The position numbers and the translations under genes were made by a program. Of a DNA stretch of 64,000 nt, positions 9,234 to 21,921 are shown one piece after another. The DNA lies in sequence record NC_133255.1; one strand, given 5' to 3'. Source of the stretch: Escherichia phage vB_EcoS-26175I. How positions within the stretch are numbered: position 1 is the stretch's first letter; each line of letters starts with the position of its first letter. The notes under the pieces were generated by a model. It was not told where the DNA came from. It saw only the letters and a program-made list of their open reading frames with translations, and searched no databases.

Positions 9234-9407
9234 GTAGATCTCAGGATTAAATCATAAACTTCATTAGCGGATACTGGAAGTATGAGATTATACATCTTTT
9301 GGTCATACCTCTGACCATACTCTATAAACACATACTCTTTAGTTAATGTATTAACAGCTAACCAGATATCAGTTATAGGAGTTTTCATCATGAGTTAATC
9401 CAATGTT

Positions 9408-9488
9408 TGGTAGGGATGGAGGGACTCGAACCCACACCCGAAGACTAGAACCTAAATCTAGCGCGTCTGCCAATTTCGCCACATCCCC
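9408..9488 (-). tRNA. tRNA-Leu (anticodon TAG), short variable region
   Basis: 78-nt body; anticodon stem ctaga/tctag perfect, loop ttTAGgt. Confidence 0.5.
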
Positions 9489-9495
9489 ATTTTAT

Positions 9496-9714
9496 TTAGT
9501 TAGAAATAAATAATAATCCCGCAACAATAGAACCTACGCCACTGAATACCATTATCAGCATAGCTTCTAAGCTGATAAAGCGGACAGTATATGGAGCGCC
9601 CCAAGAATAATCAGTAAAGAAAGTTTTCTTTTCTTTAGCTAAATCTTTAATAGTTCTAAAATAGATAGCTAGTGCTAAAGCTGCAAGAACTACAGAGGCT
9701 GCTAAGAATACCAT
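9496..9714 (-). CDS. small membrane protein
   Basis: 72 aa, two hydrophobic segments. Confidence 0.3.
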   Translation of the reverse strand: MVFLAASVVLAALALAIYFRTIKDLAKEKKTFFTDYSWGAPYTVRFISLEAMLIMVFSGVGSIVAGLLFISN

Positions 9715-9733
9715 ATTATTTCCTTAATTTGTT

Positions 9734-9809
9734 TGGTGGAGTCACTCAGAATTGAACTGAGTTCCACTGCTTGCAAGGCAGTAAGTTTAACCAAATAACC
9801 TATGACCCC
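9734..9809 (-). tRNA. tRNA-Ala (anticodon TGC)
   Basis: T-arm ctcag-aattgaa-ctgag; anticodon stem actgc/gcagt, loop ctTGCaa. Confidence 0.7.
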
Positions 9810-9814
9810 GAATT

Positions 9815-9893
9815 TGGTGGAGAATAAGAGATTCGAACTCTTCTGATATCCTCGGTGCAAGCGAGGTGTCCACTCCAAGCAGACCCATTCCCC
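9815..9893 (-). tRNA. second tRNA with anticodon TGC (Ala-like), 7-nt variable loop
   Basis: T-arm aagag-attcgaa-ctctt; anticodon stem cctcg/cgagg perfect, loop ctTGCac; atypical positions 8-9. Confidence 0.45.
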
Positions 9894-9902
9894 AAAATTT
9901 AT

Positions 9903-10166
9903 TTATTCTCTATACATATCGAGAACAGTTGCTACAATCTGAGCTTCTAGCCTAGCAATATCTTTATTCACTATATCAGATTCTACTACTAAGTGATTAT
10001 ATATTGCTTCAGTTTTAGCAAGATCTATATCAGATAGTTTATTAAGACTATTATAATACTTAGCATTATTGCAACGTTTCTTCATATCGGAAACTCGTTT
10101 ATGGAGGGTTCTTTGTTGATAACGTTGCGACATTAGTTTCTTAGCCATATCTTTAAGATCAAACAT
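9903..10166 (-). CDS. hypothetical protein
   Basis: 87 aa ORF. Confidence 0.3.
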   Translation of the reverse strand: MFDLKDMAKKLMSQRYQQRTLHKRVSDMKKRCNNAKYYNSLNKLSDIDLAKTEAIYNHLVVESDIVNKDIARLEAQIVATVLDMYRE

Positions 10167-10431
10167 AGATATTCCTTCTAGTTTACTAAGGCTATTAGCT
10201 CGGTGTGCGTATTACCCTCAGACATTAGCCAGTAGAGGATAACCGCTCTTCACAAACCCGATACACTATTCAGTTGCCGCTGAATCTAGTGGACTAATCT
10301 AGAACTTATTGCAAAGTATCCCCTGCCATTAGGGGTCTAATTGCAATTGTGCTTTTTGGCAGCCAGTCCTAGGTCGAGCTAATACCTTAGTGAACTTTGA
10401 TGAGGATTTCTCCTCATCAATTTATATAAAT

Positions 10432-10460
10432 ATTATAACAAGAAATTAAGCATCAAGCAA
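10432..10460 (-). promoter_or_regulatory. sigma70-type early promoter (TTGCTT-17-TATAAT)
   Basis: conserved element; followed leftwards by ~260 nt without annotated ORF. Confidence 0.55.
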
Positions 10461-10812
10461 GTACATTTTTAGCGATTTCTTGTAGTTCCTTAACGTCGCT
10501 AACGAAAAGGTAATCAGAGCTTCCAGAGTGCATACTCTGCATAACCACACCATCCTCTGGTGCATCTTCCTTCAAAGTAAGTCCTAACCAGAACTTGGCA
10601 AAACCAGGTGTTACCTCACCTTGACTTGCCTTGAACACATCGCCTTCTGTGATCTCTTGACCAGTAGAGAGTCCCATGTATGGTACGTTCAGATCAATAT
10701 CTTTGTAGAACTCAGCTAGATCTTGCTCGAAATCCCAACCTTTAGAGATAGCGAACTCCATTGTTACATGACCGAAATAGCCTTGAACCTTGCTTGATAA
10801 TTGCATTTGCAA
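10453..10812 (-). CDS. hypothetical protein
   Basis: 119 aa ORF. Confidence 0.35.
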   Translation of the reverse strand: MQMQLSSKVQGYFGHVTMEFAISKGWDFEQDLAEFYKDIDLNVPYMGLSTGQEITEGDVFKASQGEVTPGFAKFWLGLTLKEDAPEDGVVMQSMHSGSSDYLFVSDVKELQEIAKNVLA

Positions 10813-10831
10813 TTCCTTATTTTGAGTTAAT

Positions 10832-10905
10832 TGGTACTCGGTGATAGAATCGAACTATCGCAACCGCCGTGTAAAGACGGGGTTCTCCCATTAAACTAAC
10901 CGAGT
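10832..10905 (-). tRNA. tRNA-Val (anticodon TAC)
   Basis: perfect acceptor actcggt/accgagt, T-arm gatag-aatcgaa-ctatc, loop ttTACac. Confidence 0.7.
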
Positions 10906-12947: not shown

Positions 12948-13024
12948 TGGCGCGACCGATGGGATTCGAACCCACATTCTCTCCCGTGACAGGGGAGTAC
13001 CATTACCAAGCCAGCCCCGATCGC
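12948..13024 (-). tRNA. tRNA-Asp (anticodon GTC)
   Basis: T-arm atggg-attcgaa-cccac; anticodon stem ctccc/gggag perfect, loop ctGTCac. Confidence 0.8.
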
Positions 13025-13246: not shown

Positions 13247-13332
13247 TGGCGGGCCGTGTAGGAGTTGAACCTACTTTATCCTTGCGGATACGGATTAACA
13301 GTCCGGCGCTTAAACCGTTCAGCCAACGGCCC
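13247..13332 (-). tRNA. tRNA-Asn (anticodon GTT) with unusually long variable arm
   Basis: 83-nt body, perfect acceptor gggccgt/acggccc, T-arm gtagg-agttgaa-cctac; loop ctGTTaa; variable hairpin atcc-ttgc-ggat. Confidence 0.5.
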
Positions 13333-14404: not shown

Positions 14405-14486
14405 TGGTGGGGGATGGAGGACTCGAACCTCCGCGTGGTATACCCGGTCTACAGCCAGGCGCCGTCGCCACTGAGCCAATCCCCCC
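14405..14486 (-). tRNA. tRNA-Tyr (anticodon GTA)
   Basis: 79-nt body, perfect acceptor gggggat/atccccc, T-arm ggagg-actcgaa-cctcc; loop ctGTAga. Confidence 0.65.
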
Positions 14487-15400: not shown

Positions 15401-15478
15401 TGGTAGGGGTGGTGGGATTCGAACCCACAAAACCTGAATTTTAAGTCCAGTACCTATGCCAATTCGATTACACCCCCA
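15401..15478 (-). tRNA. tRNA-Leu (anticodon TAA), short variable loop
   Basis: T-arm gtggg-attcgaa-cccac; loop ctTAAaa; type-I length is unusual for Leu. Confidence 0.5.
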
Positions 15479-20952: not shown

Positions 20953-21921
20953 ATTGATTCCTTTTGTTAGGTATTTTTAAGAACTCTCGTAAAAGTCCTT
21001 AAAGATACCCGGCGGTAGGTAGGGTCAGCCCCCTCAGATTAAGCTCTGCAGCCCTTCCGTCAGACAATATCTTCCAGTTTAAGTCAGGGTGACTTTGTGG
21101 TTATTCAGCTAAGGCTGATCGGCAGCTCTTAGGTCATGACTCCTCGTCGCTCTTTACTCACCGGCTAGGAAGTTATCTCGAGTTCTTCCTAGCTCTTTAG
21201 TCGTGCCATTAAGGTGCCTTCTAAGAGACTTACCTTTTCCCACTTTCGATTTGGGCATGTATCAGGTAAGGGTAGCCAAATCAGCATCCTAGTCCTACGG
21301 GGTCTCATCAAATTACATACCACCGCTTTTCGATATGTAATGCCCATGTCTATACGGGAGAAGAAAATGGGCATCTTTCTCTTCGTCTGATAGCTTGAAA
21401 AACGACTCCTCATGGAGGAAAAACTTCACTATCTAGGCTAAAGCCTAAAGTTCTTCTTTAATCCGGCAAAGCAAAACCGTAGTATATACTTTTCAGGAAT
21501 GGTTGGTTAGTCTGGAACCAACTACCGCGTGGTTTTGGCAGTGCACAGCTGCCTGCGATTGCTTCGCCATTAGAAGCACCAGTTATCCAACTCTTTCCGA
21601 CCGTGGGACTCGAACCCACATCTTCAGGCGGTGAAGCCCTAATAATACCTATTATACTAGGACGGCAGTGTTGTTACATAAGTGGTTTCGGCACCCCACT
21701 AACATAAACTAGAGAAGAGTTTACGAGATTTCGGGACAGCTCCCGAGTTTTCCGCAGATTTTCAGTTCCCTATCAATAGCAATAAGCGTTAGCTCGTAGC
21801 CTCTCTCAGAGTACTTACTAGTCTCCAACTCACCGACTCTATTCAGTGGAATAGCTATCCTAGTAGGAGTCACTAAACTCACTCAGCGTAATCGGCTCGC
21901 TGTTCTCTAATTTATGAATCT

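What the first reader, a model, noticed from the sequence alone, without database searches (positions are those of the whole stretch)
9815..9893. Second TGC-anticodon tRNA with unusual architecture next to tRNA-Ala
Adjacent to a canonical tRNA-Ala(TGC) is a second gene with a perfect anticodon stem and the same anticodon, but a 7-nt variable loop and non-standard positions 8-9. It may be a divergent isodecoder, a tRNA with altered identity, or a pseudo-tRNA.
Basis: seen in the sequence. Interest (0 to 1): 0.4.

Follow-up and report, generated by a model that had tools for sequence, protein, structure and literature searches.

The report
Phage alanine tRNA with remodelled core
The odd second alanine tRNA is a real, conserved gene from a lineage found almost only in phages, in which the normally universal core nucleotides of tRNA are replaced by a different fixed set, so it is an ordinary gene with an unusual and apparently undescribed architecture.

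Summary
Window 9815-9893 (- strand) encodes a 79-nt tRNA-Ala(UGC) with an encoded CCA, a perfect anticodon stem, G8-G9, G14, C15, U21 and a 7-nt variable loop (ATATCAG). It lies 5 nt upstream of a canonical tRNA-Ala(UGC) in the 31-tRNA cluster of a T5-like phage (Epseptimavirus, identical to MK907269).

It is neither a pseudogene nor an identity switch. Across 110 distinct homologues, 99.4% of stem positions pair and 16 of 22 pairs show changes on both sides. The tertiary pairs 19:56 and 54:58 covary, and G3:U70 is invariant.

This "odd" gene is the widespread one (421 phage records in several families, at least 120 IMG/VR loci). The canonical neighbour is essentially confined to Epseptimavirus.

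The odd features form a coupled, invariant package. Outside viral collections I found it only in 7 metagenome-bin contigs, all phage-like tRNA arrays, and in none of 5,426 E. coli genomes. The same core is also used by many phage tRNA-Asp(GUC), but by none of about 2,300 phage tRNAs of the other isotypes.

Most likely it is a functional, AlaRS-charged decoder of GCA/GCU/GCG. Why the core is remodelled is unknown. Many GenBank records leave the gene unannotated.

The parts
9815..9893 (-). Complete gene for the alternative-core tRNA-Ala(UGC), 76 nt plus encoded CCA
   Evidence: ARAGORN; Rfam RF00005 at 38.1 bits against a gathering score of 29; annotated tRNA-Ala(tgc) in the identical GenBank record MK907269
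9887..9893 (-). Acceptor stem 5' strand GGGGAAU (G3 at 9891)
   Evidence: Pairs with 9819-9825. G1-G4 are invariant and pairs 5-7 covary in 110 homologues
9885..9886 (-). G8 and G9, in place of the near-universal U8 and the usual purine 9
   Evidence: Sequence. Invariant in the 15 homologues found by BLAST without any pattern constraint
9868..9884 (-). D arm GUCU-GCUUGGAGU-GGAC with U13.G22, G14, C15, G18, G19, G20a and U21
   Evidence: Pairs 11:24 and 12:23 covary. U13-G14-C15 and G20a-U21-G22 are invariant. The minimum-energy fold extends the stem through 13.22, 14.21 and 15-20a
9850..9866 (-). Anticodon arm CCUCG-CUUGCAC-CGAGG; anticodon UGC at 9857-9859
   Evidence: All 5 stem pairs show double-sided changes and 100% pairing in 110 homologues
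9843..9849 (-). 7-nt variable loop AUAUCAG
   Evidence: ARAGORN and cmscan alignments. Among 158 family members the loop is 6-8 nt and always ends in CAG
9826..9842 (-). T arm AAGAG-UUCGAAU-CUCUU
   Evidence: All 5 pairs covary. C56 covaries with position 19 and T54 with A58
9815..9825 (-). Acceptor 3' strand AUUCUCC (U70 at 9821), discriminator A73 (9818), encoded CCA (9815-9817)
   Evidence: This half was not part of any search pattern, yet G3:U70 is 110/110 and A73 is 109/110
9734..9809 (-). Neighbouring canonical tRNA-Ala(UGC) (U8, A9, A14, short variable loop), 5 nt downstream
   Evidence: ARAGORN and Rfam at 59.6 bits. At 95% identity or more it is found only in Epseptimavirus-type records
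9408..9488 (-). tRNA-Leu(UAG), the next tRNA downstream. It lies immediately or closely downstream of the alternative-core Ala gene in five other fetched phage loci

Best explanation
Window 9815-9893 (-) is a functional elongator tRNA-Ala(UGC) of a T5-like phage. Shown: it keeps a full cloverleaf and the D-loop/T-loop elbow under purifying selection, and it carries the bacterial alanine identity set and an encoded CCA. Shown: it belongs to a large lineage found almost only in phage DNA. In that lineage the usual core (U8, A14, A21, purine 15/pyrimidine 48, 4-5-nt variable loop) is replaced by an invariant, co-occurring set: G8-G9-G10, U13-G14-C15, G20a-U21-G22 and a 6-8-nt variable loop ending in CAG. 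Inferred: it is transcribed with the early tRNA cluster, cut out by host RNase P and 3' processing, and charged by host AlaRS. AlaRS reads the acceptor stem, so it should tolerate the remodelled body. Inferred: the tRNA decodes GCA, GCU and GCG, which make up 89% of alanine codons in the window's long ORFs. It would thereby supplement or back up the host tRNA-Ala pool alongside the neighbouring canonical copy. Inferred only: the invariant UGC and GUG triplets may pair (U13.G22, G14.U21, C15-G20a) to give a 6-bp D stem that replaces the 8-14 and 15-48 contacts.
For: The gene is called by ARAGORN and by Rfam above threshold. In 110 distinct homologues 99.4% of helix cells pair, against 74.8% in shuffles. 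The covariation score is 0.628 against 0.159 in shuffles and at most 0.105 for slid structures, and 16 of 22 pairs change on both sides. Tertiary pair 19:56 is GC 100, AU 8, UA 2. Pair 54:58 is TA 164, AT 22, and 16:59 also covaries. G3:U70 is 110/110, G1:C72 110/110, G2:C71 109/110 and A73 109/110. This matches the bacterial alanine identity set listed in PMC9976931. CCA is encoded in 119 of 158 members. The gene occurs in 421 phage records from Demerecviridae, Vequintavirinae, Lahexavirus and others and in at least 120 IMG/VR loci. The features are coupled. Freeing positions 8, 9, 13-15 and 20a-22 added only one, degenerate, locus. Every member carrying the D-arm signature has a 6-8-nt variable loop ending in CAG. 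Restriction to phage: 7 hits in 185,579 species genomes, all in dense tRNA arrays on metagenome-bin contigs, 4 of them next to phage genes. There was no hit in 5,426 E. coli genomes. Alanine codons are GCT 47.8%, GCA 32.6%, GCG 8.2% and GCC 11.5%.
Against: No expression, processing, charging or decoding data exist for this lineage. The 'effective amber suppressor' note in the T5 record refers to a different, canonical tRNA-Ala allele. The Rfam score is low (38.1 bits). Several records annotate the neighbouring tRNAs but not this gene, and My1 calls it 'tRNA-OTHER'. Most family members were collected with sequence patterns that fixed the 5' half, so invariance of those positions in that set is partly circular. 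Only the 15 BLAST-derived sequences and the unconstrained 3' half are independent. The minor alanine determinant G20 is A at position 20 in the window gene. The 6-bp D stem rests on invariant bases, with no covariation, and on an energy model whose z-score is only -0.69.
Confidence: 0.85

Rival explanations
1. Defence-escape backup. This concerns why the gene exists and is compatible with the best explanation. The remodelled body or anticodon arm would make this tRNA-Ala a poor substrate for a host tRNA-directed nuclease or modification enzyme. Alanine decoding would then continue when host tRNA-Ala is depleted, as shown for T5 tRNA-Lys against PARIS and T5 tRNA-Tyr against Retron-Eco7.
For: Phage tRNAs that resist host nucleases are established for T5 (PMC11464382; PMC10264068). 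The lineage is found almost only in phage DNA, and its core is strictly conserved. The gene is 100% identical in unrelated phage families that infect the same hosts, while the flanks are unrelated, which suggests it spreads as a useful cassette. Epseptimavirus keeps both a canonical and an alternative-core copy. The gene differs from E. coli alaT at position 32 and in the anticodon stem.
Against: The papers I read name no tRNA-Ala(UGC)-specific nuclease in enterobacteria. Known escapes map to the anticodon stem-loop, not the core. Strict conservation is expected for any tRNA core, so it does not by itself indicate a special function. The codon match explains retention without invoking defence.
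Confidence: 0.25
2. Pseudo-tRNA: a decaying duplicate of the neighbouring tRNA-Ala with no function.
For: Low Rfam score. Loss of U8, A14 and A21. Omitted from many annotations.
Against: It is not a recent duplicate, because the two genes align poorly. It is more widespread than the neighbour. Compensatory changes occur in all four stems and in tertiary pairs. A genuinely degenerate copy (L084) looks different, with stem mismatches and a changed discriminator.
Confidence: 0.02
3. Identity switch: the anticodon reads alanine codons but the tRNA is charged with another amino acid, or it acts as a recoding tRNA.
For: The body is unusual, and the same body also occurs with an aspartate anticodon in other phages.
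Against: G3:U70, A73, G1:C72 and G2:C71 are essentially invariant in the Ala members. The Asp members instead have Watson-Crick 3:70, G73 and GUC. Acceptor-stem identity marks therefore track the anticodon.
Confidence: 0.03
4. Non-translational tRNA-like RNA, for example a decoy, a regulator or a processing signal in the polycistronic tRNA transcript.
For: The T5 record lists several stable tRNA-like RNAs of unknown function in the same region.
Against: The anticodon UGC, U33, purine 37, the T loop, the alanine identity set and an encoded CCA are all retained. That full set is needed only for a translating tRNA.
Confidence: 0.05

Closest known systems
E. coli tRNA-Ala(UGC), alaT (NC_000913 4037260-4037335)
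   Same: Anticodon UGC. G1-G4 paired with C72, C71, U70 and C69. A73 and CCA. 5-bp anticodon and T stems. T loop UUCGAxx. C38.
   Different: The host tRNA has U8, A9, A14, G15, A21 and a 5-nt variable loop. The window gene has G8, G9, G14, C15, U21 and a 7-nt loop ending in CAG, with C32 instead of U32. BLAST finds no similarity in 5,426 E. coli genomes.
Neighbouring canonical phage tRNA-Ala(UGC), window 9734-9809
   Same: Same anticodon, G3:U70, A73, encoded CCA, same transcription direction, 5 nt apart.
   Different: Canonical core, 59.6 against 38.1 Rfam bits. Restricted to Epseptimavirus, with about 81%-identical relatives in Felixounavirus. Not a recent duplicate of the target.
Phage T5 tRNA-Ala (T5t11, NC_005859 31714-31788)
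   Same: Occupies the same slot, immediately upstream of tRNA-Leu(UAG), in a related genome. Anticodon UGC and G3:U70.
   Different: A third, canonical allele (GGGCGAAUAGUG..., with U8 and A9). The record's note that it becomes an effective amber suppressor therefore says nothing about the alternative-core lineage.
Phage tRNA-Asp(GUC) with the same core (at least 120 IMG/VR loci)
   Same: Identical D-arm signature G8-G9-G10 / U13-G14-C15 / G20a-U21-G22, and an extended variable region ending in CAG in 103 of the 108 well-folding members.
   Different: Anticodon GUC, discriminator G73, Watson-Crick 3:70. The variable region is more often 8 nt and sometimes 15-24 nt. It rarely shares a locus with the alternative-core Ala.
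tRNA-Sec D arm (6-bp stem, 4-nt loop, no 8-14 or 15-48 contacts). This is recalled from the literature and was not tested here.
   Same: The invariant UGC and GUG triplets could extend the D stem to 6 bp and remove positions 14, 15 and 21 from their usual tertiary roles.
   Different: The acceptor and T stems are the normal 7 and 5 bp, there is no long variable arm, and the anticodon is UGC. The extended stem has no covariation support.

Membership tests
tRNA (Rfam RF00005), L-shaped elongator | Score above the family gathering threshold | tested here: met
   38.1 bits against 29, full-length match to model positions 1-71
tRNA (Rfam RF00005), L-shaped elongator | Four cloverleaf helices maintained by compensatory change | tested here: met
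   99.4% of cells paired; 16 of 22 pairs with double-sided changes; covariation 0.628 against 0.159 in shuffles
tRNA (Rfam RF00005), L-shaped elongator | Elbow contacts G19:C56 and T54:A58 | tested here: met
   19:56 is GC 100, AU 8, UA 2; 54:58 is TA 164, AT 22
tRNA (Rfam RF00005), L-shaped elongator | Canonical core nucleotides U8, A14, A21 and purine 15/pyrimidine 48 | tested here: not met
   G8, G14, U21 and C15/G48 in the window gene and in all homologues
Class I tRNA | Variable loop of 4-5 nt | tested here: not met
   7 nt here; 6-8 nt in 158 of 158 family members
Bacterial tRNA-Ala (AlaRS substrate) | G3:U70 wobble pair | tested here: met
   G at 9891 and U at 9821; 110/110 homologues. 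Identity set as listed in PMC9976931
Bacterial tRNA-Ala (AlaRS substrate) | A73, G2:C71 and G4:C69 | tested here: met
   A73 109/110; G2:C71 109/110; G4:C69 96/110, with G4:U69 in the remaining 14
Bacterial tRNA-Ala (AlaRS substrate) | G20 (minor determinant) | tested here: inconclusive
   The D loop reads G18 G19 A20 G20a. Most homologues have G at position 20, and the numbering in a 9-nt loop is ambiguous
Bacterial tRNA-Ala (AlaRS substrate) | Actual alanylation by AlaRS | not testable with these tools
   Needs an aminoacylation assay
Pseudo-tRNA | Stem mismatches, loss of identity elements, no selective constraint | tested here: not met
   A genuinely degenerate copy (L084) is shown for contrast
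tRNA-Sec-like fold | 6-bp D stem | tested here: inconclusive
   Predicted by the minimum-energy fold, but the bases involved never vary, so there is no covariation
tRNA-Sec-like fold | 8/5 or 9/4 acceptor/T helices, long variable arm, anticodon UCA | tested here: not met
   7/5 helices, 7-nt loop, anticodon UGC
Nuclease-resistant phage tRNAs (T5 tRNA-Lys against PARIS, T5 tRNA-Tyr against Retron-Eco7) | Differs from the host isoacceptor at the nuclease's recognition site and survives cleavage | not testable with these tools
   Sequence differences from alaT exist, but the papers I read name no alanine-specific nuclease

The most novel reading that the evidence does not exclude
The gene belongs to an undescribed structural class of elongator tRNAs found almost only in phage DNA and used only for Ala(UGC) and Asp(GUC). 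In this class the near-universal U8-A14-A21 and 15-48 core is replaced by a co-adapted network: G8-G9, a Sec-like 6-bp D stem built from U13.G22, G14.U21 and C15-G20a, and a longer variable loop ending in CAG. On this reading phages maintain and exchange the class because it hides these tRNAs from a host tRNA-directed nuclease or modification enzyme, while leaving charging by AlaRS and AspRS intact.
Probability: 0.15. Interest if true: 0.75.

Novelty: new variant of a known kind. Interest (0 to 1): 0.5.

Why it matters
U8, A14 and A21 are among the most conserved nucleotides in biology outside mitochondria. A large, strictly conserved family of apparently working tRNAs that replaces all of them at once would be a natural experiment in how else an L-shaped tRNA core can be built. 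Its confinement to phage DNA, and to only two isotypes, also bears on the open question of why phages carry tRNAs at all. Practically, many phage records leave this gene unannotated or overlap it with a 'hypothetical protein'. Phage tRNA inventories and codon-compensation analyses are therefore likely to undercount alanine tRNAs, and possibly aspartate tRNAs too.

Tried and rejected
1. I hoped to use the T5 reference annotation ('replacement of the anticodon converts this tRNA into effective amber suppressor') as functional evidence. I rejected it because T5's tRNA-Ala is a different, canonical allele.

2. Seven completed literature searches, plus reading of three papers, found no description of this architecture (papers). 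Three further searches failed on term syntax. Much of the older T5 tRNA literature is not in the library, so absence of a hit is weak evidence.

3. The promoter and terminator scan around the gene found no more sites than in shuffles and was uninformative.

4. Single-sequence folding gives the cloverleaf, but the z-score of -0.69 is not significant, so it is uninformative on its own.

5. Mutual-information analysis found no covariation involving positions 8, 9 or the variable loop, because they never vary. The tertiary model of the new core is therefore unresolved.

6. I considered a recent tandem duplication as the origin. I rejected it because the two Ala genes align poorly and have different distributions.

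7. The only proxy is that some records annotate the flanking tRNAs but not this one, and one labels it 'tRNA-OTHER'.

Full report
**Context.** The window is identical over the queried 1.6 kb to Escherichia phage vB_EcoS-26175III (MK907269), an Epseptimavirus in the T5-like family Demerecviridae. ARAGORN finds 31 tRNA genes, all on the minus strand, between 6.4 and 21.7 kb. The GenBank record already annotates both alanine genes as tRNA-Ala(tgc). As a gene call, the finding is therefore not new.

**Observation.**
- The gene at 9815-9893 (-) reads GGGGAAUGGGUCUGCUUGGAGUGGACACCUCGCUUGCACCGAGGAUAUCAGAAGAGUUCGAAUCUCUUAUUCUCCACCA.
- ARAGORN and the Rfam tRNA model agree on the fold:
  - a 7-bp acceptor stem containing G3:U70;
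  - G8 and G9;
  - a D stem GUCU/GGAC closed by U13.G22;
  - a 9-nt D loop beginning G14-C15 and ending G20a-U21;
  - a perfect anticodon stem, anticodon UGC, and a 7-nt variable loop AUAUCAG;
  - a normal T arm, A73 and an encoded CCA.
- The Rfam score is 38.1 bits, above the threshold of 29. The canonical neighbour at 9734-9809, 5 nt downstream, scores 59.6 bits.

**Is it alive?**
- BLAST finds the gene in 421 phage records.
- Fifteen diverse copies were aligned, from Demerecviridae subfamilies, Vequintavirinae, Aeromonas phage LAh_8 and Pseudomonas phage ventosus. They show compensatory substitutions in all four stems, while G8, G9, G10, U13, G14, C15, G20a-U21-G22 and the variable-loop CAG are invariant.
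- Pattern scans of IMG/VR enlarged the set to 110 distinct sequences.
- On these, 99.4% of helix cells pair, against 74.8% in shuffles. The covariation score is 0.628, against 0.159 in shuffles and at most 0.105 when the partners are slid. Sixteen of 22 pairs change on both sides.
- The tertiary pair 19:56 switches from G:C to A:U or U:A without ever breaking.
- In a combined Ala plus Asp set, T54:A58 switches to A54:U58 in 22 sequences.
- The 3' half of the molecule was not part of any search pattern, so its perfect complementarity is independent evidence.
- This is a folded, L-shaped tRNA under purifying selection, not a pseudogene. A genuinely decayed copy (L084) shows stem mismatches and a changed discriminator.

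**Identity.**
- G1:C72 and G3:U70 are present in 110/110 sequences, G2:C71 in 109/110, G4:C69 or G4:U69 in 110/110, and A73 in 109/110.
- This is the bacterial alanine identity set listed in PMC9976931.
- AlaRS recognises the acceptor helix and charges minihelices (Francklyn and Schimmel 1989, cited in the same review). This offers a simple reason why an alanine tRNA can tolerate a rebuilt body. That step is inference.
- I see no support for an identity change.

**The framing is reversed.**
- In several Tequintavirus genomes (slur09, pork29, mar004NP2) and in Klebsiella phage Roth49, the alternative-core gene stands alone in this slot, immediately upstream of tRNA-Leu (UAG where the record states the anticodon).
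- T5 itself has a third, canonical allele in that slot.
- The canonical neighbour in the window occurs at 95% identity or more only in Epseptimavirus-type records. Its next relatives, at about 81% identity, are in Felixounavirus.
- The two alanine genes align poorly with each other.
- The "odd" gene is therefore the old, widespread one, and the "normal" gene is the local addition.

**The odd features are a package.**
- I kept the 7-nt NNANCAG loop but freed positions 8, 9, 13-15 and 20a-22. This added just one locus to the previous 60, and it is the degenerate one.
- Conversely, I kept the D-arm signature and left the variable loop free. This gave 158 hits whose loops are 7 nt (130), 8 nt (26) or 6 nt (2). 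All end in CAG, and none has the canonical 4-5 nt.
- The minimum-energy fold pairs U13.G22, G14.U21 and C15-G20a. That suggests a 6-bp D stem that would take 14, 15 and 21 out of their normal tertiary roles, as I recall for tRNA-Sec. Because these bases never vary, this is a hypothesis, not a result.

**Where it lives.**
- The strict pattern hit only 7 stretches in one genome from each of 185,579 bacterial and archaeal species. All 7 are on metagenome-bin contigs.
- All 7 hits lie beside other tRNA genes. Five sit in dense arrays of 16-28 tRNAs; L082 holds 5 tRNAs and L081 only 2, where the match is cut at the end of the stored stretch.
- Four of the 7 lie next to phage genes: a homing endonuclease, a phage DNA polymerase, a terminase and a dNMP kinase.
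- None of 5,426 complete E. coli genomes contains anything similar.
- The gene is 100% identical in Epseptimavirus (siphoviruses) and in Cronobacter, Salmonella and Enterobacter phages of 145-160 kb (two of the fetched ones are Vequintavirinae). Homology ends within a few bases of the tRNA, and the adjacent tRNA-Leu is only about 74% identical. This indicates horizontal transfer of the single gene between phage families.

**An unexpected extension.**
- The same D-arm signature, again with an extended variable region ending in CAG, is common in phage tRNA-Asp(GUC): at least 120 IMG/VR loci, with 107 of 116 forming perfect cloverleaves. These carry G73 and a Watson-Crick 3:70 pair, so their identity marks follow the anticodon.
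- I surveyed 2,697 distinct ARAGORN-predicted tRNAs from the 278 sequences held (277 fetched loci plus the window). The signature occurs in 103 (+7 near-matches) Ala(UGC) and 89 (+2) Asp(GUC). It occurs in none of the roughly 2,300 tRNAs of the other isotypes.
- The loci were chosen through Ala or Asp patterns. The other isotypes in the same arrays are nonetheless an unbiased control.

**How it most likely works.**
- Shown: the RNA folds as a tRNA, carries alanine identity, a UGC anticodon and an encoded CCA, and sits in the co-oriented tRNA cluster.
- Inferred: it is co-transcribed with the cluster, processed by host enzymes and charged by host AlaRS. It then reads GCA, GCU and GCG.
- Those three codons make up 32.6%, 47.8% and 8.2% of alanine codons in the window's 39 long ORFs.
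- Whether the remodelled core gives a specific advantage is open. One candidate is escape from a host tRNA-directed enzyme, by analogy with T5 tRNA-Lys against PARIS and T5 tRNA-Tyr against Retron-Eco7 (PMC11464382; PMC10264068). I put that at about 0.25.

**Novelty and verdict.**
- The gene is real, functional-looking and already annotated in some records.
- In a spread sample of 58 full-length BLAST matches, 19 were annotated tRNA-Ala, 1 was annotated tRNA-OTHER and 38 carried no tRNA annotation.
- In three records (phages RP7, ventosus and KpS8) neighbouring tRNAs are annotated but this one is not.
- I could not find any description of the coupled, phage-restricted alternative core or of its sharing by exactly two isotypes.
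- I rate it a new variant of a known kind, with interest 0.5.

Noticed in passing
window 12948-13024 (-): tRNA-Asp(gtc) also has G8-G9-G10 and a D loop starting GCUUGG, but G13 instead of U13, no GUG triplet and a 5-nt variable loop. It is a partial or derived version of the alternative core seen in other phage tRNA-Asp genes. The same variant recurs in the related loci.
   Followed up: partly
IMG/VR loci L161-L239 and others: A large family of phage tRNA-Asp(GUC) shares the exact D-arm signature and a variable region ending in CAG. Some have 15-24-nt variable arms. Alternative-core Ala and alternative-core Asp rarely occur in the same locus: 3 of 72 distinct Asp genes in the loci held before the Asp scan, nearly all of them Ala-selected, had the core.
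   Followed up: partly
window 15401-15477 (-), 9408-9488 (-), 14405-14485 (-): tRNA-Leu(taa) is 77 nt with only a 5-nt variable loop, tRNA-Leu(tag) is 81 nt with 8 nt, and tRNA-Tyr(gta) is 81 nt with 9 nt. Bacterial Leu and Tyr tRNAs normally have long variable arms, so these are class-I-like versions.
   Followed up: no
window 13247-13332 (-): tRNA-Asn(gtt) is 86 nt, with a stem-loop in the variable region. That is a class-II-like extra arm on an isotype that normally lacks one.
   Followed up: no
window 21594-21667 (-): ARAGORN calls a 74-nt 'tRNA-SeC(tca)' with mismatched stems and no CCA (Rfam tRNA 33 bits). It could be a UGA-reading suppressor-like tRNA or one of the tRNA-like stable RNAs annotated in T5.
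   Followed up: no
L015 399-487 and L014 399-483 compared with window 9807-9895: The alternative-core Ala gene is 97.5-100% identical in two Vequintavirinae phages (L014, L015) and in three other 147-161-kb enterobacterial phages, although the flanks are unrelated. A single tRNA gene appears to have moved between phage families.
   Followed up: yes
L083 5715-5789 (T5) compared with window 9815-9893: The slot upstream of tRNA-Leu(UAG) holds different tRNA-Ala alleles in different T5-like phages: canonical in T5, alternative-core in slur09, pork29 and mar004NP2, and both in Epseptimavirus. The T5 tRNA region is rich in HNH homing endonuclease genes, which may drive such swaps.
   Followed up: partly
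Family members with T loop AUCGUUA: A subset of the phage Ala and Asp tRNAs has A54 and U58 instead of T54 and A58, a swapped reverse-Hoogsteen pair in the T loop.
   Followed up: partly
L080 7259-7952: ARAGORN predicts a tmRNA (tag ANDAIYDQAVAA) inside a phage-like tRNA array on a Flavobacteriales metagenome-bin contig.
   Followed up: no
window about 9903-10166 (-) and records: In the records one of the small ORFs under the 9300-10900 query (I did not pin down which) carries the implausible product name 'Rho-associated, coiled-coil containing protein kinase 2'. This looks like an annotation artefact copied between records.
   Followed up: no
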